A stretch of 64,000 bases of DNA, taken from the IMG/VR virus record IMGVR_UViG_3300047476_001246, one strand, 5' to 3'. The DNA comes from a virus. This document shows positions 15,955 to 43,110 of the stretch, piece by piece (positions within the stretch are counted from its first letter, which is position 1; every line of letters begins with the position of its first letter). A program made the position numbers and the translations under genes. A model generated the notes under the pieces. The model was given only the letters and a program-made list of their open reading frames with translations, had not been told where the DNA came from and did no database searches.

Positions 15955-16626
15955 TCAAGCAACTATTTTTTTACGTATTGTAGTCCAAAGTTGATCAATT
16001 TGATTGGCATAATCAGCTTCTTCAGGAACTACATCTACAAATTCTCCATATCTAGCCCCCGTAAAGTTTTTTTCAACTCGAGTAAAGGGCAACTCTTCTT
16101 CTAACATTTTTCCTCGAAAACGGTCATAGGCTTGATTAAAAACCGACGTCCATAATTCTAATCCTCGACCTGCTGCAATGTTTATACCAAGTTCGGGTAT
16201 GGCAAAATGATGATCCCACAATGCAGTCCAATCATCATTGATGTTGTTGATATAATCAACTACTCTTTTGGTCAAAACAAATGCATCAGATTCGATGTTT
16301 ACAATTTTATCAAAATTGTATTTTGCAGCATAATCTGTTGCTGTTTGCATACTTCTAAACAAACCTGGATACTCAAACGGTGCCGGGGATCCGAGGTTAT
16401 CATTGTGATGAAACAGTACAACATTGTGATTGGGCTGCACATCAGGTAAATCGTAAATCACTTCGCAATCAATATCCAGCGGTAGCGTTGGTGAACCATC
16501 GTCGACTATAAGTATTTGATCAAACTCTAATCCTACGGTACTGTGATAGTCCAACCAACGCTTCCATCTGTGGTTCCATAGTCCTTGCGAATCAGCAAAG
16601 CTAGCACAAAATAGCAAGGTCTTCAT
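15955..16626 (-). CDS. Glycosyltransferase-like (GT-A) hypothetical protein
   Basis: ILIVDDGS and IESD (DxD-like) motifs. Confidence 0.6.
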   Translation of the reverse strand: MKTLLFCASFADSQGLWNHRWKRWLDYHSTVGLEFDQILIVDDGSPTLPLDIDCEVIYDLPDVQPNHNVVLFHHNDNLGSPAPFEYPGLFRSMQTATDYAAKYNFDKIVNIESDAFVLTKRVVDYINNINDDWTALWDHHFAIPELGINIAAGRGLELWTSVFNQAYDRFRGKMLEEELPFTRVEKNFTGARYGEFVDVVPEEADYANQIDQLWTTIRKKIVA

Positions 16627-17228
16627 TACATTGCAGGACCATTGCCATTGCGAAAACCTACTGTACCACCTTCGGCTTCGATACGCTTGATAACATCTTC
16701 AAACAAGATAGGTGCAAAGTCTGTCTGTTCAACGCAGACGCAATGATAGCGAGGGTCAATCTTTTCTTTTACTCCCCACTCCACGAACTCTGCGGTAGAA
16801 CTGGCTCGACGCATTACACGGTTAGCATGCAAGTGTCCGTGAATGTTAACACCAAACCTACCAAGGCTGTCCTCATGAATAGGAATATGACTTAAAATCA
16901 TTCCGTTCATGACATGATATGCCCGAAGCTCACGAAAATACTTGCGGTACTCGTCGTCGCGGAAGATGTCGTGGTTGCCTCTAATTAACACTTTGTCGCC
17001 GTTTAAACGACTCAATGTTTCAAGGCTTCGACGATTGATAACAACATCGCCCAGGTGGTAAACTTTATCATTGGGTCTAACACGCTCGTTCCATGCTGCT
17101 ACCATAAACTCATCCATTTCCTCCGGGCTCTCCCAAGGGCGCAGTTTCGTCACTCCATCGTTCCGCATAAAGCGGCAAACACCAGCGTGACCAAAATGCG
17201 TGTCACTGACTAAAAACACTGCTGGCAT
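16626..17228 (-). CDS. Calcineurin-like metallophosphoesterase
   Basis: SDTHFGH, HLGDV, GNHD, SHIP, HGHLH; start at MPAVF with GGAG RBS. Confidence 0.92.
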   Translation of the reverse strand: MPAVFLVSDTHFGHAGVCRFMRNDGVTKLRPWESPEEMDEFMVAAWNERVRPNDKVYHLGDVVINRRSLETLSRLNGDKVLIRGNHDIFRDDEYRKYFRELRAYHVMNGMILSHIPIHEDSLGRFGVNIHGHLHANRVMRRASSTAEFVEWGVKEKIDPRYHCVCVEQTDFAPILFEDVIKRIEAEGGTVGFRNGNGPAM

Positions 17229-17241
17229 TTGGTTCTCCTTA

Positions 17242-17670
17242 TTAAAAATCTTCGCGAACTTCGCGAAACGAAGTAGGGTCTGCATCCGGGTTAGTATCGA
17301 CTTCAAAAGATCCACCGTAATAGCCGTTGTGGCTATTACGCACTTCAAAGTCAATATATCCGCGATCAGTTTTCAAAGTAAAGAAACCATCTTGGATAAC
17401 GTCCCATTCGTCCTCATCAGTTCGATTTTCGCCCCAACCTTTATCTTCTGCTCCGGTCACTAGTGCTCCACGCAGGATGTCAAAAGTATTACCTTCTCCT
17501 AGCACATTCACACCAGTCATGTGATTGATCCACACAGTATTGCAACAGTCTCCAGAAGTGTAGTAATGAAATTCCTGACCGTTGATTGTACGCACAATCA
17601 ACCGGTTATTGTCGTCATTCAGGAGAATGCTGTTAATACGCTCCCCTACTAAATTTTTAAACACGCTCAC
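17242..17670 (-). CDS. Phage hypothetical protein (DCC...NGYYGG)
   Basis: ORF with GGAGG RBS. Confidence 0.7.
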   Translation of the reverse strand: MSVFKNLVGERINSILLNDDNNRLIVRTINGQEFHYYTSGDCCNTVWINHMTGVNVLGEGNTFDILRGALVTGAEDKGWGENRTDEDEWDVIQDGFFTLKTDRGYIDFEVRNSHNGYYGGSFEVDTNPDADPTSFREVREDF

Positions 17671-20790: not shown

Positions 20791-21221
20791 TTATATTCTT
20801 GCAAATATCTATTGCGTTTTGTATCTTTTTTATATCTATTGCCTTGTCCTTTACTACCAAAGTTTTCTGTTTGCGTATGGCAGTTAGGACAAAGTAGCCT
20901 TAAATTACTAGGGAAATTATTATCACTATCACCATCAATATGGTCTAATTGTAACATAAGAGGCTTTTTATTCCAAATAGAACTTTGCCCACATTCCTCG
21001 CATATTTCCCCGCGTGTCTCAATTAAGTACTTTTTAAGAGCACGAGATCCATCACTTACTTTACCTTCTAAAATTCTAGGAATTGTTTCATTGTACCACT
21101 TAAACAAGCCTTGACAATTATTATCACAAAACTTGTTTATTTTACTATGCCCCCACAGATTTTCTTTTCTGCAGTGCAAACAGTTATATTTCCTATTGCT
21201 ACCTTTAATTCCGCTCGGCAT
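20781..21221 (-). CDS. HNH endonuclease
   Basis: CEECG...LQLDHIDGDSDNN...NLRLLCPNCH. Confidence 0.88.
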   Translation of the reverse strand: MPSGIKGSNRKYNCLHCRKENLWGHSKINKFCDNNCQGLFKWYNETIPRILEGKVSDGSRALKKYLIETRGEICEECGQSSIWNKKPLMLQLDHIDGDSDNNFPSNLRLLCPNCHTQTENFGSKGQGNRYKKDTKRNRYLQEYKAR

Positions 21222-21271
21222 AACATAGACCTCCTATTATATTTAGCAAAGGTCTATGTTTTTGATTTATT

Positions 21272-21358
21272 TGGTGGGTGCTGATGGTAATGCTCCACGT
21301 GCCTTGACTTCCCTACCTTTAGGAATGGTTTTACAGACCACCGTAGGGGGCAACACCC
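21272..21358 (-). tRNA. Atypical tRNA-Tyr(GUA)-like RNA lacking a normal D-arm
   Basis: Acceptor GGGUGUU/AGCACCC-ACCA, anticodon loop CUGUAAA, no D-arm, T-loop AGCAUUA. Confidence 0.65.
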
Positions 21359-21367
21359 ATTTAACTT

Positions 21368-21443
21368 TGGTGGAGGTTATCGGACTCGAACCGATCACCC
21401 TTAGCTTGCAAAGCTAATGCTCTCCCAGATGAGCTAAACCCCC
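21368..21443 (-). tRNA. tRNA-Ala(UGC)
   Basis: Loop UUUGCAA; G3:U70. Confidence 0.94.
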
Positions 21444-21446
21444 AAA

Positions 21447-21698
21447 TTAATTTTCTCTAACATGTTTGGCGTCAACACAAGTTTCGCCTTTGAACACATA
21501 CACATCTGAATCTACTCGTAGCTGTTCAAACACTTGATTGTTCACGCAAATATATGGATCTCGATGATTTTGCATGTAGTAAAAGACTGCATAACCAATA
21601 CCAGCTAATATCATTAGTATAGGAATATACTTAAGATATTTCACAATTTCGGGCATTGCACCCAAAATTTGCGGTAAGTTTTTTAACAGGTCTTTCAT
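21447..21698 (-). CDS. Small membrane protein
   Basis: One TM helix; TAAATA 6 nt upstream of the ATG. Confidence 0.65.
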   Translation of the reverse strand: MKDLLKNLPQILGAMPEIVKYLKYIPILMILAGIGYAVFYYMQNHRDPYICVNNQVFEQLRVDSDVYVFKGETCVDAKHVREN

Positions 21699-21771
21699 AC
21701 TCGTATTTAACCATTCTGAAGCACACTATGCCACGCTTTGAACCTGGACTCTTAGTAATGTGCTTTAGAAT

Positions 21772-22664
21772 GTGCTAACGCTGAGATTACACGTTAGCCA
21801 CAAGCACCTCTAGCATTATAGTACGCCTTGCGAGCATACCTTCTCTAGACATCCACTAAATCCTGTTATCACACAGTAATCTAGTCTGCTTGCAGCATCG
21901 CCGTTTTTATGGTCAGGCAGTAGACCAGTCGTTACGTGCTACTCTGTACCTTATTTTCCGTTGAACTTGCGGTCCATTAAGCCTTGCGAGCTACGAAACT
22001 TCTAGTACAAATTAGTGTCACCTTGCGAGCTTCACTAAACTCAATTGGCTCACGCCTTGAGTGTTAGATGCTTTTCGCACATAACCGGAGCAGTCTTTGC
22101 ATTTTTGTAATGATAGTTGGATTCGAACCAACTGCCGTCAGATTAAAAAGTCTGTCGCTCTACCGATGAGCTATATCAACCTACTACGATGTGCTGCTCC
22201 AGTTGCTGAATAAAGTTTTGCTCTACCCAATACAACACACCATGTACCTTTTGCCTGCCGGCTACTCAGTAGTCCTTCGCGATTAGTGTGACCCCGCCGT
22301 TGCCGACAGCCCCACCGACCACTTGTACTGCACACAAGCCCTTGGCTGCGAAACCTCGGACAAATGCACTACCCTTTCTCATACCAGTTAACTGATTGGT
22401 TTTGCAGTGAAGTCAGCACCACCTGTTACTTTCCTTGCACCCTGGTTCCCTTGCGGGCCAGTCGATACAAGTTCTTTCCACTACATCAGCTTCGCTGTTA
22501 AATCCACCCGTCTTATAAGTGAACGCTACCTCACGGTAGTGAGCAGGCTTGTTTAAGCGGACCATTGCTGGCGCAGGCGTGTAGGACGCTGCTGCTTTGG
22601 GTCACTCACGTGACTTATCCTTAGTTAGACGGCGAACCGTCTAGCAAGAGATTAAACTCCCTAA
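21772..22664 (-). ncRNA. GOLLD RNA (giant ornate RNA) with embedded tRNA-like domain
   Basis: About 890 nt non-coding, many GNRA/UUCG hairpins (CUCGCAAGG, ACCGUGAGGU, GACGGUUCGCCGUC), 3' end ...GUAAUCUCAGCG, inside a phage tRNA cluster, own TTGACA-17-TATTAT promoter at 22671-22699. Confidence 0.8.
22109..22180 (-). tRNA. tRNA-Lys-like domain inside GOLLD (8-nt loop CUUUUUAA, no CCA)
   Basis: D-arm, T-arm GUUGG-UUCGAAU-CCAAC, only 5-bp acceptor. Confidence 0.7.
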
Positions 22665-23745
22665 GTATCTATAATAAAACAAATTCAAATTCTTGTCAAC
22701 TACTTTTTTATCATATTGAAACACACTGACTACATTGGCAAACCCGTTTGGGATTTACAACCGTTGTCTGGGCGGTGATCCGCTTACAATGCATTTCAAT
22801 ATGGCCGGTCTGTCCTGTTGTTACAGTCCATCTAGGCTGAACAGCATTTGCAACTGACTGAACGGATACTCTTAATACCCATCTTTAGAACTGACCGTCT
22901 ACCATATTGAAGCACACTATCACAAACTACAGGCACGACTAAGAGCCCGGGAAAAAGACAATGTGCTTCAATATGGCAACAATGTTGACTACCCTTCTAG
23001 CCCACGGTCAAGTTCTGCTAGTCGCTCTAGGGTCATTGGCGGTACTGTTTGCACAGGCAGACCCAATCATTGTTTACCATATTGAAGCATACTCCGGCAA
23101 GGACTCGCACCTCGCTCCACCCTGTCCCAAACTACTTACGGATACGAGATTCAGTCTTCCGGACGACTTCATCTTATCTTACCGCTTTCACCCAAGGTGC
23201 ATGCGAACGTCATACACTACAGAATGTGCTTCAATATAGATCCCACCGTTAACGACAGCATTTGTCCTAGCTTTATTTTGAGTCGGTTAATGCACGGTGG
23301 GAACACATGCCGACCTGTCGTATTTTCGTGTACTGTTGCTTGCCCCAAGGGTTAGGTACCTACCTCAGCGACTCATACTGGTCGACGACAACGACCGCTG
23401 CTCTTAAATTACATCTAGTACAAACAAATGCTTGGGGAATCGAACCCCGCCTGCTCCCCTTTCGGCAACTCATTCACCCCTGCAAGGGTTTCAACTCTGC
23501 GTACTCGGTTCACCGTGCTAGCCAATACACTTAGCAGCCTGTCATAGTTCATTGCAGTGCCCTATGAGCAGTTTTGTACTATATAGAAACACACTGCCGA
23601 TTAGTTATCAAGAAACGACCTGATGATCAAGTCAGGCTCAGTATGTTTTTATATGCAGTCTCGTTTAGCGTCCGAGACTGCCAAGACGGGGTCTGTAGAC
23701 TGCTGACAATTTATCACATTATACGCCGTCAGCAAAGGCGAGCTT

Positions 23746-23841
23746 TGGGTGCAGGATCAAGGGGTCGAACCTCGACGCGACATATCTAGAATAACCACGT
23801 TGAGCCTGCTCAACATGGCGTCGCCCAGTCCACTTCCTGCA
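23746..23841 (-). ncRNA. tRNA-like RNA with acceptor stem, T-arm and CCA but no anticodon loop
   Basis: UGCAGGA/UCCUGCA-C-CCA; GAGG-UUCGACC-CCUU; central long hairpin CCAUGUUGAGC-AG-GCUCAACGUGG. Confidence 0.65.
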
Positions 23842-23845
23842 TAAC

Positions 23846-23920
23846 TGGTACACCGTAGGAGAATCGAACTCCTCTTACCTGCGTGAAAGGCGGGTGTCCT
23901 AACCGATAGACGAACGGTGC
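23846..23920 (-). tRNA. tRNA-Glu(UUC)
   Basis: Loop CUUUCAC. Confidence 0.93.
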
Positions 23921-23928
23921 ATAACTTT

Positions 23929-24003
23929 TGGCGTCTCTGGATGGAATCGAACCACCATCACAAGTTTCGTAGACTCGTATCCTATCCGTTGAACGACAGA
24001 GAC
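23929..24003 (-). tRNA. tRNA-Arg(ACG)
   Basis: Loop CUACGAA. Confidence 0.92.
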
Positions 24004-24004
24004 T

Positions 24005-24200
24005 GTGTATTCTTGCTTAGGCCACGTGGTTCCACCCATCGCCCCTATGCTGGAGTTGTTGCCCTGTCCGAACACTAATGCGGTTTGCTACGTAGTGTCC
24101 ACGCTGCTATGTTGTCTGCTTACGTCTGCGCTGTCGGTGCCATAGCCACCGGACTGTCTCATAGTCAACGCCAACTTTATGGATAGTTGGAATCCGGAAT
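24005..24200 (-). ncRNA. Putative structured ncRNA, copy 2 of the GGACAGGGCAACAACUC family
   Basis: Shares core with 12950..13160; promoter-like sequence at about 24204-24234. Confidence 0.5.
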
Positions 24201-24351
24201 CTGTATAATAGCAAAAATTATCTTTTTAGTCTACCATAATTTAGTACACTGTGATTAACAAGTTTATCGGCAGCATCCTCTTGTTGTGGATGTCAGATCT
24301 CCTGGACAATCTAATGTCTCGGGCACTGCCTTATATCAACGTACTAAATTA

Positions 24352-24435
24352 TGGTGCCCCAGGCGAGACTCGAACTCGCACGCCTTGCAGCACTGGCTTC
24401 TAAGACCAGCGTGTCTACCATTCCACCACCAGGGC
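24352..24435 (-). tRNA. tRNA-Leu(UAG)
   Basis: Loop CUUAGAA; variable arm. Confidence 0.93.
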
Positions 24436-24579
24436 AATGTTTACAAATTGTTAATGAACCTGTTTCTTACTGCTTGTCTGTGTTGTCTTACACAGTTTCA
24501 TTATTATATGGAATATTGCTATTCCTGTCAACTACTTTTTTGTGTTGTATTTTTGCAACACAGTTGCTACTTTGTTAAC

Positions 24580-24655
24580 TGGTAGTAGAGGTCGGACTCG
24601 AACCGACGATAAACACCGTATGAAGGTGGTGCATTGGCCGCTATGCTACTCTACC
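24580..24655 (-). tRNA. tRNA-Met(CAU), elongator-like
   Basis: Loop UUCAUAC. Confidence 0.88.
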
Positions 24656-24656
24656 G

Positions 24657-24733
24657 TGGTACCCACTCTTGGAATTGAACCAAGGACCCTCGCCTTATCA
24701 AGACGATGCTCTGACCAACTGAGCTAAGTGGGC
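24657..24733 (-). tRNA. tRNA-Ile(GAU)
   Basis: Loop UUGAUAA. Confidence 0.92.
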
Positions 24734-24771
24734 ATTTTTAAATTGTACTAAAAACTACCTTTATTGTCAAC

Positions 24772-24846
24772 TGGCCGGTCCGGACAGATTCGAACTGCCG
24801 ACAGCTGGTTTCGAAGACCAGAACTCTTCCGCTGAGCTACGGACCG
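24772..24846 (-). tRNA. tRNA-Arg(UCG)
   Basis: Loop CUUCGAA. Confidence 0.9.
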
Positions 24847-24853
24847 TAATACG

Positions 24854-24929
24854 TGGTGCTGCCTCTAGGAATCGAACCTAGTTCAACGGCTCTTCAGACC
24901 GCCGCTATGACCACATCAGCTAAAGCAGC
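24854..24929 (-). tRNA. tRNA-Phe(GAA)
   Basis: Loop CUGAAGA. Confidence 0.92.
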
Positions 24930-24930
24930 A

Positions 24931-25004
24931 TGGTGCTCCCAACTGGTAATGATCCAGTGTTTCTACATTACCAATGTAGTGTAATACCTTTATACTATAG
25001 GAGC
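24931..25004 (-). tRNA. tRNA-Thr(GGU) with non-canonical T-loop AUCAUUA
   Basis: Loop UUGGUAA; CCA end. Confidence 0.85.
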
Positions 25005-26573
25005 TTTATCTACTAGAATTGAAAATAATTTTTGCTTGTATTGATCAATAAAATTTTTACGTACATTTGCTTCAATATCGTGAAAGTTAAAATCCTTGAA
25101 CAATGTGTTTCTAACAGTGTTAAACGAGTAATCGGGATGATTCATCGAGCTCACTGCTATAGCAAATTGCCCACTAATATGTAGTTTGTCGGATTGAAAA
25201 CTTTCTTTCATAATGAAGTTAGATAGTTTACTGACACGTTCATAACTGGTATTTTTATTTTTCCAGTTCATAATTTTATCAAATTTTTTAATAGCATACT
25301 GTACGTGGGGTACAACAGTATCTACATCGTCGTCCTCATAATATCCGTAAGATTTATAATTTTTTACAATATCACTTGAATATGTTGTTAAATCTTGTCG
25401 GTATATCCTTAATGCATTAAAAATCCAACTGTGAAGAGGAACGTCCTGTTTCATTATTGCTTCAAATGTCTTTAAATTTGATTCCTCGGTATCTTCGGGC
25501 AAACCTGCTATAAAACTGCCATGCAATGATAAATCTTTATCATACTTTTTTCTAAGATATTCCAAAGTTTGAATTTGTTTACTGATATTAAAACCTTTAC
25601 CGATTAATTTTGCACTCACCGGATTAAGTGTTTCTATTCCAAAGAACATAGATCTTACACCAATATCATACAGCAAGTCTATTGTGTGTGGTCGTGTGGC
25701 CAAAAGGTCCAGACGATGATATCCCCAAAACTCTGGTTGGAAAGGCAATTTTTTAATTATGCTGTGCAATCGGTGCAATTTTGCTTCGTGATCATTGAAT
25801 GTATCATCTACCAGCAAATATGTTTTAATGCCATGCTCTTGGTAATTTTTTTCTAACTCATACGCCAGGTGCTTTTCGGATCTTACAAAATCAAGATTTT
25901 GTTTACCATTCATTGGATACGAACAAAACTTGCACTGAAAAATACAACCTCTGGCAACTTCTAGTGGTAATGAAGTATGATTTACTATGTCCTCTGGCAA
26001 CCACACAAAGTCAGAATTTACAAAATCATATTCCTTGGCCAATCTATCATCAATGATGATGCAGCCCCACAAATTTTTTGTACTGTTATTAAGTTTTTCT
26101 CCACGACTTACGTGATTCATTAGGTTAACAATGCTTACTTCACTATATCCAATACAAGCATAATTAATATTTTTATTATTCATGTTAGGATGAGCTTTTG
26201 TGCCACCTACAAGAATTTTTACATCGGAATTCAGACTCTTGAAATACCCAATTAGTTTATTTTCAATTTCTTTGCCATGAGGGAAAATTTGATTAACCGG
26301 CAACTCTGTGTATCGCGGAGTTGGTTTTCCTTCTACCTGATCAACTTCGATACTTTTAAAAAAGGTGGTACTAAATGCAATTAGTTTGGTTTGATTGGTA
26401 ATAACCAGATCTGCTAATTTTTTTAATTCAGCTTCATCGAATGACGAAAAATGATTTACTACCAAACAACGATATCCATTTTTTCTCAGCACGTGGGCAC
26501 ACTTGTATGCACCAATTGGCGGAATACTGGCTATGTTATCTGTTTCGTCAGTGAAAAAAATTGCATCGTACAT
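24990..26573 (-). CDS. Radical SAM protein (class B, B12-binding-like N-terminus)
   Basis: RGCIFQCKFC (CxxxCxxC), DDTFN, FFGIET, FIAGLP. Confidence 0.9.
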   Translation of the reverse strand: MYDAIFFTDETDNIASIPPIGAYKCAHVLRKNGYRCLVVNHFSSFDEAELKKLADLVITNQTKLIAFSTTFFKSIEVDQVEGKPTPRYTELPVNQIFPHGKEIENKLIGYFKSLNSDVKILVGGTKAHPNMNNKNINYACIGYSEVSIVNLMNHVSRGEKLNNSTKNLWGCIIIDDRLAKEYDFVNSDFVWLPEDIVNHTSLPLEVARGCIFQCKFCSYPMNGKQNLDFVRSEKHLAYELEKNYQEHGIKTYLLVDDTFNDHEAKLHRLHSIIKKLPFQPEFWGYHRLDLLATRPHTIDLLYDIGVRSMFFGIETLNPVSAKLIGKGFNISKQIQTLEYLRKKYDKDLSLHGSFIAGLPEDTEESNLKTFEAIMKQDVPLHSWIFNALRIYRQDLTTYSSDIVKNYKSYGYYEDDDVDTVVPHVQYAIKKFDKIMNWKNKNTSYERVSKLSNFIMKESFQSDKLHISGQFAIAVSSMNHPDYSFNTVRNTLFKDFNFHDIEANVRKNFIDQYKQKLFSILVDKAPIV

Positions 26574-26612
26574 GTTTATAGTTATTGATCTCTCTAGAGT
26601 TCTTTATATTCT

Positions 26613-26688
26613 TGGGGTATCCGACCGGTATCGATCCGGTACTACCGCTTTCACAGAGCAGGGTGCAGGCCACTACACTACGGACACC
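26613..26688 (-). tRNA. tRNA-His(GUG)
   Basis: Loop CUGUGAA; G-1 and C73. Confidence 0.92.
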
Positions 26689-26690
26689 AT

Positions 26691-26766
26691 TGGCAAGGGG
26701 TACAGGATTCGAACCTGTGACACGCGGGATCAAAACCCGCTGCTCTACCAACTGAGCTAACCCCCA
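26691..26766 (-). tRNA. tRNA-Gln(UUG)
   Basis: Loop UUUUGAU. Confidence 0.92.
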
Positions 26767-26845
26767 ACTGAACCATATAGAAACACACTACTTGCGTCTC
26801 CGTGTAGAACCAAGTCACACGGTACTTGGCCAGTATGTTTTTATA

Positions 26846-26921
26846 TGGTGGAGCCACTGGGATTCGAACCCAGACCTGACGGATTAAAAGTCCGCTGTCT
26901 TAACCGTTTGACTATAGCTCC
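26846..26921 (-). tRNA. tRNA-Lys(UUU)
   Basis: Loop CUUUUAA. Confidence 0.92.
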
Positions 26922-27208
26922 ATTCTAATACCATACAGCTGAAACATCAATGCTGCTAGTTTATGCTTGTTTTGATATGTCCAACCATATCTAAGTAAGC
27001 CTATCTTGTCACTCTTGTCACTGTCCATACGGACTCTCCTTAAAAAGAAAATACTACTAAAATTTCTACCACACGATTTGCTGCATTTATTAAAATTTCG
27101 TAAGCCCCATTTTACTATCCTTTCATATTTTTGTCAACCCAGTACAACAAAAGAACCACAAATACAAGTACAATCACAGCCCCATGTCATGGTTCTCCTT
27201 TAAGTTAG

Positions 27209-27283
27209 TGGAGCAGGATATCGGATTCGAACCGATGACATTCTCGTCGGCAACGAGACATTCTACCACTGAATTAATCCTGC
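27209..27283 (-). tRNA. tRNA-Gly(GCC)
   Basis: Loop UUGCCGA. Confidence 0.9.
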
Positions 27284-28134
27284 ATAAAAATTTGTTTACA
27301 GTACTCTAAGTCACTATAATCCAAATGCGGCATATTGTCATACAGTCTAATAGATACTGCATTTGTTATTGTCGGATGATACTCTAAAAAATTAAAGTTT
27401 CTATCCTTGATCATGTAAGACTGTCTTGACTCAAGATAGAAAGGTCTCTGCACCACAGTTTTTAAACTGGGATTCTGAACCAACATCCAGTTTCCTAAAA
27501 TTTCATATTCACTAAACCAAATATGTCCTTGTTTCTGTTTCAATTCGTATTTGACTGCTTCGAGCCACGGCCTACTATACGAATTTTCAATATGCTTCTT
27601 TAACGATTCCCAATGGCATTTCTTTAACGGAAAAATGTCTGTTATAAAACTGTTATTTGTTTGCCTTGGGCGACCAGTAAATTTGTTAACAAATTCATAA
27701 TATTCTTCGTCGTGATTGACTCCTTCCAATACAGCAGGCACTGGCTCATTGTTATCAAAATAATGATATGGTCGTGTTAGCAGTATATCACTGTCCTGTA
27801 TCAAAATATTTTCATTGTCACAGGAGTCAATGGCCATGAACTTTATGAGTTGCTGCCTGATCCAAAAATTCATAGTGCCGTACAAATTCAATTCTTTGTA
27901 CTGCTCCAGTATATCCAAATCGTGTACAACACGGAATGTACTGGTGTCTATTCCGTGTTGCTGATATATTTCTAATAGATTGATTGGGTTTCGCCAACGC
28001 CGTCCGGGCTCAACAACAGATCCTAGGTAAACAATCGTTTGATCAGGTTTAGGATGTAAAAATTTATCAAACTGTAGTGTTAGTACAGACTCGATCACTT
28101 TGGTTGAAGCGACGAACATTAATCTACATATCAT
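27274..28134 (-). CDS. Glycosyltransferase-like hypothetical protein
   Basis: WIRQQLIK...DSD...FSEYEILG motif; start re-assigned outside tRNA-Ile. Confidence 0.65.
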   Translation of the reverse strand: MICRLMFVASTKVIESVLTLQFDKFLHPKPDQTIVYLGSVVEPGRRWRNPINLLEIYQQHGIDTSTFRVVHDLDILEQYKELNLYGTMNFWIRQQLIKFMAIDSCDNENILIQDSDILLTRPYHYFDNNEPVPAVLEGVNHDEEYYEFVNKFTGRPRQTNNSFITDIFPLKKCHWESLKKHIENSYSRPWLEAVKYELKQKQGHIWFSEYEILGNWMLVQNPSLKTVVQRPFYLESRQSYMIKDRNFNFLEYHPTITNAVSIRLYDNMPHLDYSDLEYCKQIFMQD

Positions 28135-28150
28135 ATAACTTCCTTTTATT

Positions 28151-28242
28151 TGGTCCCCCAGGCGGGAGTCGAACCCACATTGGCCAATTATCTGTTGCAC
28201 ACGGGATATAAATCCGCTGTTTTACCATTAAACTACCGGGGG
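28151..28242 (-). tRNA. tRNA-Ile(UAU) with unusually long variable region
   Basis: Acceptor CCCCCGG/CUGGGGG-ACCA; loop UUUAUAU; about 22-nt variable region. Confidence 0.8.
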
Positions 28243-28495
28243 ATTGACACTCTGGTTGCTTAGAAAGCTGCCTTCCGGTCCGTCAAAGGGATAGGAACAC
28301 TGTTCATCCAAAGTGTATGATAAAACACATTCCTGGGCTCTCGTACCAGTAGCCCATAGCGCCGGCCGCCATTATGTGTTTGAATGTGCTTTATCATCCG
28401 GATTTTACCACTGCGTTATCGCCACAGCTTCATCCTCGGCTCCGCCCGTTTGGCAAGTTATAGTGTTGCCGCAGCCTCGTTCCGCTACACACTTA

Positions 28496-28663
28496 TTACT
28501 TTTGTCGTTTTGTTAGACGACGCAATTTTTCTGCTTCCTCTGATTGCTTACGCAATCGTTCTAATTTACTTTTAACTAACTCTTCAAGCAACTTATCGTT
28601 AAAAACAAAATTACGTTCTTCTAACTTTTTTTGAAACGACATAATTTCTTGATCGTTTGTCAT
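28496..28663 (-). CDS. Small basic coiled-coil protein (55 aa), first ORF after the attenuator
   Basis: Read manually: MTNDQEIMSFQKKLEERNFVFNDKLLEELVKSKLERLRKQ...; AAAGGAAGAG RBS. Confidence 0.55.
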   Translation of the reverse strand: MTNDQEIMSFQKKLEERNFVFNDKLLEELVKSKLERLRKQSEEAEKLRRLTKRQK

Positions 28664-28675
28664 CTCTTCCTTTAT

Positions 28676-28712
28676 AAAACAAAAACCCCAGGGTGTTTAG
28701 TCCTGGGGTTTT
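28676..28712 (-). terminator. Intrinsic terminator of a putative attenuator
   Basis: AAAACCCCAGG-ACTAAACAC-CCTGGGGTTTT followed by TGTTTT; 5' arm can alternatively pair with 28740-28758. Confidence 0.85.
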
Positions 28713-28734
28713 ATAGAATTTGGTTATTTAAAAC

Positions 28735-28857
28735 TTAGGTTCTATAATCCCCCAGGACACGATTACTAATATCGCGTGTAATCATACCCCAGTAGGCTAC
28801 TAGCCCACATTCGGGTTGTGATATAAACGATTTATGTAATAGTGCGGAGTTCATCAT
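28735..28857 (-). CDS. Putative attenuator leader peptide (40 aa) containing all 20 amino acids
   Basis: MMNSALLHKSFISQPECGLVAYWGMITRDISNRVLGDYRT*; ATG 7 nt after the -10 box; 3' end overlaps the antiterminator arm. Confidence 0.7.
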   Translation of the reverse strand: MMNSALLHKSFISQPECGLVAYWGMITRDISNRVLGDYRT

Positions 28858-28864
28858 AGTCTCT

Positions 28865-28893
28865 ATTGTATATTTATTTATCTCTGTTGTCAA
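28865..28893 (-). promoter_or_regulatory. Sigma70 promoter heading the tRNA array
   Basis: TTGACA-17 nt-TACAAT, with ATAAATA embedded in the spacer. Confidence 0.85.
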
Positions 28894-28933
28894 CCTGCAT
28901 TTTATTTATGATTTCCAATTGTTTTTTTAGCAA

Positions 28934-29794
28934 CTAATTTATATCAAGCAGATTTCTTGTTTCTTGCGGATTCGCTAACTGTCCGCCAACATCCTCAATG
29001 ATACGTTTTGCTTTAGTGACCAGTTCGGCATTGCTGCGAGCAAGTACTCTTGGACTAACAAAAATATTATCCTCTAGTCCCACTCTAGCATGGCCGCCGT
29101 TGATAGTACTTAATGCTACATAAGGCATTTGCCACCGCCCCACACCAAATGCATACCAAACAGCACGGTCGGGTAAAATGCTTCGAGCATATTGTAAGGT
29201 CTCGGGACAACTAGGCCAACCCCATTTGACACCAGTTGCTATTTGTACCATGGGTGTTCCTTTGATCTCACCTCGGTCAATCAGGTCCTTGGCTATCATC
29301 ATGTCGCCACTGTCGAATATTTCCAATTCAGGCTTGACTCCGGCTTGTTGTATGAGCTTGGCCATTTCTCGTATTACTGGAACGCTGTTTACAGTAATAT
29401 GATCCTGACCTCTGTTCATGGTATTGAAATCTAGACTGCAGATCTCTGGCCGAAGTAGAACAATGTGACGCACTCGTTCTTCTGGACTAAGGAACGAATC
29501 ACTTCCGGTACGAACTGCTGCGGCTGGACCGGCAGCACCTGGCCCAGTTGTCAGGTTAATAAGTACATCTGAATTTTGCGATCTTATACGTTCTACTACT
29601 TCTTGATAGTATTCTAACTTCATGCTAGGCCCTGCTGTTTCAGGATCTCTCACATGCAGATGCACAATACTGGCGCCAGCTTCGGCAGATTCCAAAGCAG
29701 AGTCTGCAATTTCTCTGGGAGTGACAGGCAAATTGGGATTGCTTTTCTTGGTAGTGTGTGCCCCAGTTATAGCACATGTTAGAATGGTTTTCAT
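28934..29794 (-). CDS. 3-keto-5-aminohexanoate cleavage enzyme family (BKACE/DUF849)
   Basis: ITGA...P.TP.EIA...AGASIVHLHVRD; KPELEIFD; GGHARVGLEDN. Confidence 0.93.
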   Translation of the reverse strand: MKTILTCAITGAHTTKKSNPNLPVTPREIADSALESAEAGASIVHLHVRDPETAGPSMKLEYYQEVVERIRSQNSDVLINLTTGPGAAGPAAAVRTGSDSFLSPEERVRHIVLLRPEICSLDFNTMNRGQDHITVNSVPVIREMAKLIQQAGVKPELEIFDSGDMMIAKDLIDRGEIKGTPMVQIATGVKWGWPSCPETLQYARSILPDRAVWYAFGVGRWQMPYVALSTINGGHARVGLEDNIFVSPRVLARSNAELVTKAKRIIEDVGGQLANPQETRNLLDIN

Positions 29795-42747: not shown

Positions 42748-43110
42748 CTATTGGTTAACAAGGCGCTACCCCCGTGGTCTAGTGCTGTTTAGGCTACTAG
42801 TGCAACTGCTGAGTCATTTGCAGCAACACGGCCCAAGAAGGCTGCTTTGCTCATTTTGACTTTTACAGTACCATTTTTTGTATTTGCGTTTGCATTTACG
42901 ATTTTGCTTGATTTACGGTCATCGCCTACCGTGTTGTCCATATCCTTACTTGTTGCCCAATCGAAACCTGGTCGAGCCCATCATAAAGAATATTACTGAA
43001 TTGTGTTGGATGGCGCCATCCGCAAAAACCTGTGCAATATTCTTTATGGTGGACCCGGGCGGAATCGAACCGCCGTCTTGAACACTTTTCATTCTACTTC
43101 ATACAACAAT
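42748..43110 (-). ncRNA. ssrA: Circularly permuted (two-piece) tmRNA
   Basis: Acceptor piece ...GGCGG-UUCGAUU-CCGCC-CGGGUCC-ACCA (ends 43047) precedes the coding piece GGGCUCGACCAGGUUUCGA (starts 42979); G3:U70; tag ORF 42893-42789 ending ANDSAVALVA. Confidence 0.92.

What the first reader, a model, noticed from the sequence alone, without database searches (positions are those of the whole stretch)
21711..28399. Seven copies of a conserved stem scaffold with variable cargo, punctuating CCA-ending non-tRNA RNAs
Seen: stems of consensus CAUAUUGAAGCACAUU...AGUGUGCUUCAAUAUG occur at about 21712-21772, 22712-22803, 22902-22976, 23078-23238, 23580-23656, 26773-26848 and 28317-28397. They enclose unrelated inserts of about 30-130 nt. 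Many arm differences are G-U pairs on the minus strand, which supports RNA-level pairing. Several stems start exactly at an upstream CCA: tRNA-Lys CCA-UAUAAAAAC, and two roughly 100-nt RNAs with paired ends finishing in ...GACCGGCCA (22801-22903) and ...CAUUGUUGCCA (22974-23078). The permuted-tmRNA spacer has the same CCA-then-stem layout. The insert at 26790-26830 can form a pseudoknot (CCAAGU/ACUUGG with CCGUGU/ACACGG). Inference: an RNase III-like or protein-bound processing scaffold releasing a library of small decoy, aptamer or guide RNAs.
Basis: partly seen in the sequence, partly recalled or inferred. Interest (0 to 1): 0.7.

Follow-up and report, generated by a model that had tools for sequence, protein, structure and literature searches.

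The report
Constant-stem RNA hairpin cassettes in phage tRNA arrays
A giant phage and over a hundred uncultured relatives scatter through their tRNA gene arrays a so far undescribed RNA hairpin whose 19-base-pair stem is nearly constant while its interior differs from copy to copy; the stem looks like an RNase III cutting site that frees small RNAs of unknown use.

Summary
A covariance model finds eight copies on the minus (tRNA) strand of the window, all seven listed plus 24230-24358, and a weak ninth in the tmRNA spacer. The same stem, N73-CCA-UAUUGAAGCACAUU[cargo]AGUGUGYUUCAAUAUGGU, occurs in at least 119 IMG/VR contigs. It always lies in tRNA arrays and in tRNA sense, with 96% pairing and 14 of 19 pairs showing compensatory changes. 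Wobbles are strand-specific, so pairing is at RNA level. In 66 of 170 copies the opening CCA is exactly a tRNA 3' end. Cargos are very diverse (175 cargos, 128 clusters), and cargos and flanks assort independently between phages, which indicates cassette exchange. There are no target-site duplications and no dispersal outside the arrays. No true copy turned up in 185,579 prokaryote genomes. I found no Rfam family and no paper. The two best-conserved boxes match published E. coli RNase III determinants (CWUW/WAWG and UU/AG) in register for one cleavage centre. That predicts cuts at CCAUAUU^G and UUCAA^UAUGG. RNase III processing is therefore the best-supported mechanism (inferred, not shown); cargo function is unknown. 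One cultured phage, Synechococcus phage BUCT-ZZ01, carries divergent copies. First readers of this scan noted the same family on other genomes.

The parts
28314..28400 (-). Hairpin copy h8. It is divergent: base AUGAU/AUCAU, no CCA, and a top of UU/AA.
   Evidence: R1 28.2 bits, E 1.9e-5; inverted repeat I8.
26769..26852 (-). Hairpin copy h6 of the AUAUAAAAACA subfamily, with a conserved A.C at stem position 5. Its CCA is the 3' end of tRNA-Lys, and tRNA-Gln follows 4 nt later. The cargo can form an H-type pseudoknot.
   Evidence: R1 48.6 bits; fold -31.2 kcal/mol, z -4.76; tRNAs.
24230..24358 (-). Its CCA is the 3' end of tRNA-Leu(tag). The stem middle has diverged (AAUUUAGUACG), but CAUA/UAUG and UU/AG are kept at the same spacing.
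   Evidence: R1 32.4 bits; I7; fold z -4.69; spacing scan.
23575..23660 (-). Hairpin copy h5, same subfamily as h6. It is not preceded by CCA.
   Evidence: R1 39.9 bits.
23073..23243 (-). Hairpin copy h4, with the largest cargo (133 nt between the 13-nt cores).
   Evidence: R1 38.9 bits; I12.
22898..22980 (-). Hairpin copy h3, the canonical stem. It follows the CCA of a ~100-nt RNA.
   Evidence: R1 63 bits; fold -41.7 kcal/mol, z -9.61.
22707..22808 (-). Hairpin copy h2. It follows the CCA of a ~100-nt RNA and lies just upstream of the GOLLD promoter.
   Evidence: R1 42.9 bits; I11.
21707..21777 (-). Hairpin copy h1, directly 3' of the GOLLD RNA. Its 33-nt cargo (UUACUAAGAGUCC...GGCAUAG) recurs in 6 other viral contigs (7 occurrences counting the window).
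   Evidence: R1 50 bits; cargo family.
42977..43053 (-). Spacer of the permuted tmRNA: CCA followed by a 13-bp stem CAUAAAGAAUAUU/AAUAUUCUUUAUG. It is a distant look-alike that keeps CAUA/UAUG but lacks the UU/AG top.
   Evidence: R1 17.9 bits, E 0.015; sequence; tmRNA.
22801..22903 (-). CCA-ending ~100-nt RNA between h3 and h2. It has a terminal helix CGGUC/GACCG followed by G-CCA.
   Evidence: Fold z -2.43. Not called as a tRNA.
22974..23078 (-). CCA-ending ~100-nt RNA between h4 and h3. It has a 7-bp terminal helix AACAAUG/CAUUGUU followed by G-CCA.
   Evidence: Fold (z -0.34, so only the terminal helix is notable).
21778..22243 (-). GOLLD RNA, conserved 3' domain with an embedded tRNA-like element. 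Its promoter TTGACA-17-TATTAT lies at 22699-22671.
   Evidence: RF02032, 216.6 bits; promoter scan.
26846..26921 (-). tRNA-Lys(ttt), whose CCA forms the base of h6.
   Evidence: ARAGORN.
24352..24435 (-). tRNA-Leu(tag), whose CCA forms the base of h7.
   Evidence: ARAGORN.

Best explanation
These are small-RNA cassettes of a phage-specific, so far undescribed RNA family. Each is a hairpin transcribed within the tRNA/ncRNA array. It has a nearly constant 19-bp closing stem and an individually variable cargo of about 30-240 nt. The stem usually begins with the discriminator and CCA of the preceding tRNA or tRNA-like RNA and ends in UGGU just before the next RNA. The most likely mechanism is that the constant stem is a precise substrate for host RNase III. 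Its base carries the proximal-box consensus (C75-A76-U-A over U-A-U-G). Ten base pairs higher, its top carries the distal box (a U.G and a U-A pair). Together these define one cleavage centre. The predicted cuts are CCAUAUU^GAAG on the 5' arm and UUCAA^UAUGGU on the 3' arm. Such cuts would give three products. The first is the upstream RNA with a 4-nt tail, to be trimmed back to CCA by exonucleases. The second is a 6-13-nt leader on the next RNA, to be removed by RNase P. The third is a free cargo hairpin closed by a 10-bp stem with a 2-nt 3' overhang. Shown here: the family, its RNA-level pairing, its register with CCA, its restriction to phage tRNA arrays, its fixed box spacing, and cassette exchange between phages. 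Inferred: cleavage by RNase III, the exact cut sites, and that the freed cargos are the functional products. What the cargos do is unknown.
For: Family and pairing. Arms are 96.1% paired, 14 of 19 pairs show changes on both sides, and 0 of 500 shuffles reach this. Wobbles occur in the tRNA-sense strand only. The minus strand always scores higher. Register. 141 of 170 copies open with CCA, and in 66 that CCA is exactly an ARAGORN tRNA end. Pairing is within each hairpin: variant arms such as CUAG/CUAG in L035 match their own partner, not the neighbour's. Distribution. At least 119 viral contigs carry it. In five large records all hits cluster within about 1-12 kb of one genome region. The two matches in 185,579 prokaryote genomes lack the family's marks. 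RNase III match. Published rules place the distal box UU/AG at positions 10-11 and the proximal box CWUW/WAWG at positions 2-5 from the cleavage centre (PMC5141509). The distal box is a UA plus a UG pair, and the elements fit an 11-bp half-site (PMC1540722; PMC3867540). The hairpin has CAUA/UAUG at stem positions -1 to 2 and U.G plus U-A at positions 13-14, and the distance between them fits one centre. Spacing. CAUA-N10-YU...AG-N10-UAUG occurs 163 times against 0-16 for N6 to N14. Thirteen copies with diverged middles keep N10. The distal box lay outside the search pattern, yet it is U.G in 59 and U-A in 61 of the 70 hairpins that do not themselves match the search word. Cargo. Two families show compensatory pairs inside the cargo. 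Transcription. The five best promoter matches in 21000-29000 are all on the minus strand.
Against: No RNA ends are known, and the hosts and their RNase III preferences are unknown. The rules used come from E. coli, and the review says distal boxes are not conserved across species. The pair next to the predicted 5'-arm cut is G-C in 126 of 161 copies. In E. coli that is a catalytic antideterminant, lowering cleavage 7- to 14-fold. Stem positions 9-12 (CACA) are as conserved as the boxes, which RNase III rules do not explain; another partner or a need for recombination homology may act there. I read the register off text descriptions after seeing the motif, so some post-hoc fitting is possible. 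Only 64 of 987 tRNAs in the loci are followed by a hairpin, so it is not needed for tRNA maturation in general. The dataset was collected with an exact 15-mer, which inflates apparent conservation at positions -2 to 12. Cargo folding energy is only slightly below shuffles (mean z -0.37).
Confidence: 0.5

Rival explanations
1. The constant stem is the binding site of a dedicated protein, either phage-encoded or a host factor other than RNase III. That protein could be a sequence-specific double-strand RNA endonuclease or an RNA-binding protein that holds each cargo as an RNP, much as Ro holds Y RNAs. The end products would be protein-bound hairpin RNAs.
For: Sequence, not only pairing, is conserved along most of the stem, including positions 9-12 that RNase III rules do not explain. 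The motif is phage-restricted. The U.G wobble is kept in 129 of 161 copies.
Against: No candidate protein was found. Two complete jumbo genomes that carry hairpins have no RNase III domain and no TROVE/Ro domain. The PF04308 RNase H-like gene embedded in many arrays fails in both directions. The 36 ORFs shared by three hairpin-bearing genomes include many large proteins, consistent with a T4-like core, though I did not annotate them. The Rfam YrlA model gives no hit on the hairpins.
Confidence: 0.2
2. The hairpins are primarily DNA-level elements: palindromic cassettes that spread or are exchanged by recombination at their arms, or as targets of the homing endonucleases common in these arrays. 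Under this view they are tolerated because the transcript is processed anyway, and the cargo has no function.
For: Cargos and flanks assort independently: 9 of 10 cargo families sit in different contexts, and in all 8 shared-flank groups (7 of them following a called tRNA) the same upstream end is followed by more than one cargo family. There is presence/absence and swap polymorphism against the collinear relative L113. 99 of 128 cargo clusters are singletons. HNH genes lie in the arrays.
Against: Wobbles are strand-specific: G.U 76 against A.C 2 at position 8. The register with the tRNA CCA is exact. There are no target-site duplications at any boundary. All copies lie in the tRNA region and in tRNA sense in records of 192-400 kb. 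Compensatory pairs occur inside cargos.
Confidence: 0.12
3. The hairpin is a cis-regulatory element for its neighbours. By pairing with N73-CCA of the upstream RNA, and sometimes with G1-G2 of the downstream tRNA, it delays or orders their maturation by RNase P, RNase Z or exonucleases, or it insulates folding of adjacent tRNAs. The cargo would be only a spacer.
For: The discriminator and CCA are paired in most copies (A-U 95, G.U 28 at position -3). In 18 copies the GG that pairs with CC are the first two bases of the next tRNA. Copies are enriched after tRNA-Glu, Lys, Ile and Gln.
Against: Most copies (78 of 170) have no called tRNA on either side. Only 6.5% of tRNAs have one. Cargo families are conserved with compensatory changes. 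The model does not explain the conserved stem top 13-14 bp away from the CCA.
Confidence: 0.1
4. The hairpins are transcription-level signals for the long untranslated array: put- or nut-like antitermination sites, or pause sites.
For: The array is many kilobases of untranslated RNA with repeated strong promoters. The elements are repeated and sense-specific.
Against: None is followed by a U tract, and no stem is listed as terminator-like. Nothing in this model explains the exact CCA register or the variable cargo. There is no similarity to known families in Rfam.
Confidence: 0.04

Closest known systems
RNase III processing hairpins of phage polycistronic transcripts (T7 R1.1 and its sister sites) and the E. 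coli RNase III proximal/distal-box model (PMC1540722, PMC3867540, PMC5141509)
   Same: Repeated, mutually similar stem-loops between genes of a phage transcript. The stem is about two helical turns. The proximal box is CWUW/WAWG and the distal box is UA+UG, at the expected spacing. Wobbles are tolerated.
   Different: Here the stem abuts a tRNA CCA exactly and lies in a tRNA/ncRNA array rather than between mRNAs. The upper part is a long cargo that differs in every copy. The stem sequence is conserved across more than 100 phages. Cleavage has not been shown.
Phage T4 tRNA cluster with species I and II RNAs (one ~1.75-kb precursor of eight tRNAs plus two stable RNAs of unknown function, PMC2330249). 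From my own memory, not checked here: species I RNA is cut by RNase III in vitro (Paddock, Abelson and co-workers, 1970s).
   Same: Non-tRNA stable RNAs of unknown function are co-transcribed with phage tRNAs and released by processing. Three hairpin-bearing genomes (G001, G002, BUCT-ZZ01) share 36 ORFs, and BUCT-ZZ01 is classed in Kyanoviridae; I took this as a T4-like core but did not annotate the ORFs.
   Different: Model R1 finds nothing in the T4 genome even at E 10. T4 has two such RNAs, not a family with a common stem.
tRNA-linked small-RNA release: murid herpesvirus 68 tRNA-pre-miRNA units and the mitochondrial tRNA punctuation model (own knowledge, not checked here)
   Same: A tRNA or tRNA-like element directly abuts a hairpin, so tRNA-end processing defines the hairpin's ends.
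   Different: Those are eukaryotic systems that use RNase Z and Dicer. They have no constant stem sequence and no pairing of the CCA.
Intervening sequences of 23S rRNA excised by RNase III (own knowledge, not checked here)
   Same: Sporadically present, variable inserts closed by a stem, removed at RNA level, and patchily distributed between relatives.
   Different: Those sit inside rRNA helices and have no shared stem sequence across taxa.
Integron attC sites and gene cassettes (own knowledge, not checked here)
   Same: Imperfect inverted repeats bound exchangeable cassettes of unrelated content, clustered in one array.
   Different: No integrase was looked for and none turned up in the families I annotated. 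The R/L box sequences differ. Here the evidence points to RNA-level pairing, and the cassette content is non-coding RNA.
Bacterial Y RNAs (YrlA) bound by Ro/Rsr
   Same: A long closing stem with a conserved protein-binding sequence plus a variable, sometimes tRNA-like module. Some cargos contain T-arm-like hairpins.
   Different: Rfam YrlA does not match. There is no TROVE protein in five hairpin-bearing phage records.

Membership tests
E. coli-type RNase III substrate | Double helix of about 20-22 bp (at least 11 bp on one side of the cut) | tested here: met
   19 bp are paired in 96% of cells, and position 15 is paired in about 80%. There are 11 bp from the predicted centre to the distal box.
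E. coli-type RNase III substrate | Proximal box CWUW/WAWG at positions 2-5 from the cleavage centre | tested here: met
   C-A-U-A over U-A-U-G at stem positions -1 to 2: C-G 137, A-U 157, U-A 156, A-U 158 of 161. Rule taken. The symmetry-related upper box reads G-A-A-G, three of four.
E. coli-type RNase III substrate | Distal box, a UA plus a UG pair, at positions 10-11 from the centre | tested here: met
   U.G in 129 and U-A in 141 of 161 at positions 13-14, unbiased by the search word. In register with the proximal box; spacing fixed at N10. Rules.
E. coli-type RNase III substrate | No inhibitory pairs at box positions | tested here: inconclusive
   G-C lies next to the predicted 5'-arm cut in 126 of 161 copies. 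In E. coli this is a catalytic antideterminant. Host rules are unknown.
E. coli-type RNase III substrate | Cleavage by RNase III with 2-nt 3' overhangs | not testable with these tools
   Needs end mapping or an in vitro assay.
MITE or other transposon-derived palindromic element | Target-site duplications | tested here: not met
   Direct-repeat matches of 2-5 nt at five candidate boundaries stay within the range of shuffled partners.
MITE or other transposon-derived palindromic element | Dispersed insertion, either orientation | tested here: not met
   All hits lie in one tRNA region per genome in five records of 192-400 kb. All are in tRNA sense, judged by wobble asymmetry.
Rfam families (HDV-like/theta, hammerhead and other self-cleaving ribozymes, YrlA, others) | Match to a curated covariance model | tested here: not met
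   cmscan at E up to 5 over 21000-29000 gives only GOLLD, tRNAs and chance hits. Fourteen related loci give only tRNAs and one group I intron.
Y RNA / Ro RNP | Ro/Rsr (TROVE) partner encoded nearby | tested here: not met
   PF05731 is absent from five hairpin-bearing phage records, two of them complete. A host-encoded Ro is not excluded.
Intrinsic terminator | G+C-rich stem followed by a U tract | tested here: not met
   None of the stems is listed. The 3' arms end in AUAUGGU followed by mixed sequence.

The most novel reading that the evidence does not exclude
The hairpins form an exchangeable library of small structured RNAs, in effect an RNA-cassette array. The constant arms would serve twice: as the RNA processing handle, and as the DNA homology through which co-infecting phages swap cargos. 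The fast-turning cargo repertoire would be a set of decoys, aptamers or inhibitors aimed at host defence or translation factors, evolving in an arms race.
Probability: 0.2. Interest if true: 0.85.

Novelty: new variant of a known kind. Interest (0 to 1): 0.72.

Why it matters
Phage tRNA arrays are usually read as tRNA genes plus junk spacers. This family shows that a large group of aquatic, probably T4-like and jumbo phages place a standard RNA 'socket' there, and that the socket holds more than a hundred different small RNAs. If the RNase III reading is right, it is a natural, compact design for releasing many small RNAs and clean tRNA ends from one transcript, comparable to engineered tRNA-guide RNA arrays. 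It would also give a sequence-defined, ruler-like RNase III site of practical use. The rapid exchange of cargos between related phages suggests a function under diversifying selection. That makes the cargos candidates for RNA-based counter-defence or host take-over, a class with few known examples. The family also supplies a covariance model for annotating unexplained non-coding stretches next to GOLLD and ROOL-type RNAs. Finally, one cultured phage-host pair (BUCT-ZZ01 on Synechococcus elongatus PCC 7942) is available for testing it.

Tried and rejected
1. Close DNA relatives among 50,697 cultured phage records. Only tRNA matches came back. The exact arms are absent.
2. Literature search for the arm sequence, as DNA or RNA, found nothing relevant. 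Searches on tRNA-cluster hairpins, GOLLD neighbours and theta ribozymes found no description.
3. Phage-encoded RNase III and Ro/TROVE as partners. Both are absent.
4. PF04308 (DUF458/YkuK, RNase H-like) as the dedicated nuclease. The gene sits inside tRNA arrays in 19 of 119 loci. But two complete hairpin-bearing genomes lack it, and five cultured phages that have it (DLP_6, X1, MD18, RHph_I1_18, KVP40) show no hairpin. Rejected as an obligate partner.
5. The Metallophos phosphoesterase (16626-17354) recurs in 20 of 119 loci. It also occurs in 2,189 cultured phage records, so it is not specific.
6. Shared-proteome comparison of G001, G002 and BUCT-ZZ01 gave 36 shared ORFs and no evident specific candidate.
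7. Leader-trailer pairing across each tRNA, instead of local hairpins. Rejected because variant arms covary within hairpins (L035).
8. Kissing or antisense pairing between the cargos of h1 and h3, noted earlier in this scan. The complementary cargo is absent from the six other contigs that carry the h1 cargo.
9. Cargos as guides. No complementarity to the window beyond shuffles.
10. A test for acceptor-like helices upstream of non-tRNA CCA ends was not decisive (observed about 6.3 of 7 pairs against 6.07 in controls).
11. The radical SAM gene in the array (24990-26573) has no match in cultured phages.
12. T4 has no R1 match.
13. The two prokaryote-genome hits are perfect palindromes with a different top, no CCA and no tRNAs nearby. 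They are probably unrelated.

Full report
**Setting.** The window is part of a large phage genome. ARAGORN finds 30 tRNAs and a permuted tmRNA, all on the minus strand. Rfam finds a GOLLD RNA at 21778-22243 on the minus strand. The five best sigma-70-type promoter matches in 21000-29000 are all on the minus strand. One of them is TTGACA-17-TATTAT at 22699-22671, in front of the GOLLD unit. The region of the finding is therefore a minus-strand array of tRNAs and other non-coding RNAs. Three protein genes interrupt it: an 83-residue ORF, a radical SAM protein and a DUF6492 protein.

**Check of the observation.** The repeat finder returns five of the seven stems as inverted repeats of 16-20 nt. 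I then collected relatives (see below), aligned 88 hairpins (A1) and built covariance model R1.
- With filters off, R1 finds all seven reported copies on the minus strand. It also finds an eighth at 24230-24358, directly behind tRNA-Leu, and a weak match in the tmRNA spacer at 42977-43053.
- For the eight copies the minus strand scores 12-23 bits above the plus strand; for the weak tmRNA spacer match the gap is only 1.8 bits.
- The hairpins fold as drawn, far better than shuffles: z -9.6, -4.8 and -4.7 for three copies.
- Four window copies start at a CCA. Two of these are tRNA ends (Lys and Leu). Two are the ends of ~100-nt RNAs that have a terminal helix followed by N-CCA. The other four copies do not start at CCA.

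- Nearly all of them have the inverted partner 30-130 nt away. These include arms with matched double changes, such as AUAUUCUAGCACA with UGUGCUAGAAUAU.
- 83 of the 120 sequences (119 loci plus the window) hold tRNA genes, with a median of five. I oriented 170 hairpins by the strand of neighbouring tRNAs.
- The consensus in tRNA sense is N73-CCA-UAUUGAAGCACAUU, cargo, AGUGUG(U/C)UUCAAUAUGGU.
- On A1 the 19-bp stem is 96.1% paired, 14 of 19 pairs have changes on both sides, and no shuffle or slid register comes close.
- Wobbles are one-sided. Position 8 is G.U in 76 copies and A.C in 2. Position 13 is U.G in 129, C-G in 19 and U-A in 9. On the other strand these would be A.C mismatches, so the selected pairing is in the RNA of tRNA sense.
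- A subfamily (AUAUAAAAACACA with UGUGUUUCUAUAU) has a conserved A.C at position 5. Window copies h5 and h6 belong to it.

**Register with neighbours.** 141 of 170 copies open with CCA. In 66 the A of that CCA is exactly the last base of an ARAGORN tRNA, always in the same register.
- The discriminator pairs with the final U of the 3' arm: A-U in 95 and G.U in 28.
- 49 copies have a tRNA 0-20 nt downstream. In 18 of these the GG that pairs with CC are the first two bases of that tRNA.
- Only 64 of 987 tRNAs in the loci are followed by a hairpin, and 78 hairpins have no called tRNA on either side. The element is therefore not a general requirement of tRNA maturation. It is a unit of its own that uses the neighbours' ends.

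**Distribution.** In five viral records of 192-400 kb, two of them complete, all R1 hits cluster within about 1-12 kb of one genome region.
- A gapped two-arm pattern found only two places in one genome each of 185,579 prokaryote species. Both are perfect palindromes with a different top, no CCA and no tRNA nearby. I regard them as unrelated.
- Target-site duplications are absent.
- Rfam has no matching family, either in the window at E up to 5 or at gathering threshold in 14 related loci.
- The arm sequence is in no paper of the library.
- Among cultured phages the exact arms are absent. R1 does find four divergent copies in Synechococcus phage BUCT-ZZ01 (host S. elongatus PCC 7942) among its 26 unannotated tRNA/tmRNA genes. 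One is behind tRNA-Lys and one just upstream of its permuted tmRNA.
- Nine other cultured phages with tRNA arrays, and T4 itself, gave nothing.

**Cargo.** The 175 cargos fall into 128 clusters, of which 99 are singletons.
- Their G+C content is 48%. Their folding energy is only slightly below shuffles (mean z -0.37, p about 1e-4).
- Small families exist across contigs. The 33-nt cargo of window copy h1 recurs in six other contigs. Two families show compensatory changes in internal helices.
- Cargo and context assort independently. Nine of ten cargo families lie in as many different flanks as they have members. In each of the eight groups of copies that share an upstream flank (seven of them behind a called tRNA) more than one cargo family follows it.
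- The collinear relative L113 shows this at close range. The whole block 21709-23929 (h1, GOLLD, h2-h5) is replaced there by 260 bp. L113 has a hairpin plus 175 nt between an ncRNA and tRNA-Arg, where the window has 12 nt. Behind the orthologous tRNA-Leu both phages have a hairpin, but with different stem middles and different cargos.
- Cassettes are thus gained, lost and swapped. The breakpoints lie at the arms.

**Mechanism.** The conservation pattern along the stem is conserved, then variable, then conserved. Positions -1 to 3 and 9 to 14 hardly vary. Compensated changes concentrate at positions 4-8.
- Published work on E. coli RNase III describes a proximal box of 4 bp next to the cut, a middle box, and a distal box of 2 bp about 11 bp away, in an ideal helix of 22 bp (PMC3867540).
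- The distal box is a U-A plus a U.G pair. The proximal box has G-C at box position 1, A-U or U-A at box position 2, A-U at box position 3, and A-U or U-A at box position 4, which is next to the scissile bond (PMC1540722).
- This is summarised as UU/AG at positions 10-11 and CWUW/WAWG at positions 2-5 from the cleavage centre (PMC5141509).
- The hairpin reads C75-A76-U-A over U-A-U-G at its base, and U.G plus U-A at stem positions 13-14. If the base box is taken as the lower half-site and the top box as the upper half-site, both point to one centre, between stem positions 3 and 4.
- With 2-nt 3' overhangs, the predicted cuts are CCAUAUU^GAAG and UUCAA^UAUGGU.
- The upper proximal box then reads G-A-A-G, three of four. 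Its pair next to the cut is G-C, which lowers catalysis in E. coli.
- An agnostic scan for CAUA-Nx-YU ... AG-Nx-UAUG with a complementary middle finds 163 hairpins at x = 10 and 0-16 at other spacings. Thirteen of the 163, including window copy h7, have diverged middles. The length between the boxes is therefore held fixed, as a ruler-type enzyme would require.
- The distal box was not part of my search pattern, so its conservation is not an artefact of ascertainment.
- I consider RNase III processing the best-supported mechanism, at roughly even odds. It is inferred from sequence rules of one species and read off after the fact. Positions 9-12 are more conserved than those rules explain.

**Predicted products.** The model gives three products: the upstream RNA with a 4-nt tail, for exonucleolytic trimming to CCA; a short leader on the next RNA, for RNase P; and a cargo hairpin with a 10-bp stem. 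After cutting, the A+U-rich lower duplex of about 5-7 bp should fall apart. The CCA-ending, anticodon-less RNAs between the window's hairpins look like RNase P-type handles that define the ends of neighbouring units. This is inference only.

**Search for a partner protein.**
- No RNase III or Ro/TROVE domain is encoded in hairpin-bearing phage records.
- The most recurrent array-embedded gene, a PF04308 RNase H-like protein, fails as an obligate partner in both directions.
- A phosphoesterase that recurs near the arrays is common in phages at large.
- Three full genomes share 36 ORFs, many of them large proteins, which I took as a T4-like core without annotating them.
- A dedicated protein remains possible but has no candidate.

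**Comparison with known systems.** The closest are the RNase III sites of T7-type phages, and the T4 tRNA cluster with its species I and II RNAs (PMC2330249). Beyond these, and from my own knowledge, come tRNA-linked hairpin release in a herpesvirus, rRNA intervening sequences, and integron cassettes. None combines a constant, CCA-abutting stem with a large exchangeable set of non-coding cargos. I therefore file it as a new variant of a known kind (phage RNase III-type processing hairpins). A more novel reading, an exchangeable small-RNA cassette library, is not excluded.

**Earlier notes of this scan.** First readers described the same kind of stems in tRNA arrays of other genomes. Those notes were not followed up and are not independent evidence.

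Noticed in passing
L002:4773-5240 (-); also L128:1880-2356 in BUCT-ZZ01: A ~155-residue PF04308 (DUF458/YkuK, RNase H-like) gene sits inside phage tRNA arrays, 0-68 nt from a tRNA and on the same strand, in 19 of 119 loci. It also occurs in 76 cultured phages, including KVP40. It is a candidate tRNA-array RNA-processing enzyme of unknown role and is not tied to the hairpins.
   Followed up: partly
window 16626-17354 (-): A calcineurin-like phosphoesterase (phrog_547) recurs near hairpin-bearing tRNA arrays in 20 of 119 loci and in G001, G002 and BUCT-ZZ01. It is also present in 2,189 cultured phage records.
   Followed up: partly
loci L001-L119: Hairpins directly follow tRNA-Glu(UUC) 16 times, Lys(UUU) 11, Ile(GAU) 7 and Gln(UUG) 5, out of 64 cases. 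These tRNAs are each 3.5-5.7% of all tRNAs in the loci. The counts are not corrected for relatedness of the contigs.
   Followed up: no
window 21709-23929 versus L113:6051-6311: The whole GOLLD unit, with five hairpins and the tRNA-like RNAs, is missing from an otherwise collinear relative (about 72-95% DNA identity in the flanks). It behaves as one 2.2-kb indel.
   Followed up: partly
L128 (ON615601.1 114000-131000): The GenBank record of Synechococcus phage BUCT-ZZ01 annotates no RNA genes here. ARAGORN finds 25 tRNAs, including an anticodon-CTA suppressor, plus a permuted tmRNA. Several short 'hypothetical protein' CDS overlap them.
   Followed up: partly
L128:3120-3180 (-): The tmRNA spacer of BUCT-ZZ01 contains CAUAUUGAAGAUAGUGUGC. 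This reads like the first 10 nt of a 5' arm joined to the first 7 nt of a 3' arm. It may be the scar of a collapsed hairpin, or chance.
   Followed up: no
window 23746-23842 (-): A tRNA-like RNA with a 7-bp acceptor stem, a T-arm and CCA, but a long hairpin in place of the D and anticodon arms (fold z -2.5). It lies 4 nt behind tRNA-Glu.
   Followed up: partly
L113:6557-6653 (-), and identical cargo in L002, L007, L023: A 71-nt cargo is identical in four contigs despite different flanks. It contains a T-arm-like GGCGGUUCGAAUCCCC. Several other cargos also hold T-loop-like hairpins.
   Followed up: no
L019:13185-13378 (-): A group I intron (RF00028, 53.4 bits) lies within a hairpin-bearing tRNA array.
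   Followed up: no
L129:2172-2229 and L130:3295-3364: Two MAG contigs carry perfect palindromes CAUAUUGAAACACAAAAAG...CUUUUUGUGUUUCAAUAUG. They share 13 nt with the arms but lack the CCA, the wobble and any nearby tRNA. Their origin is unclear.
   Followed up: partly
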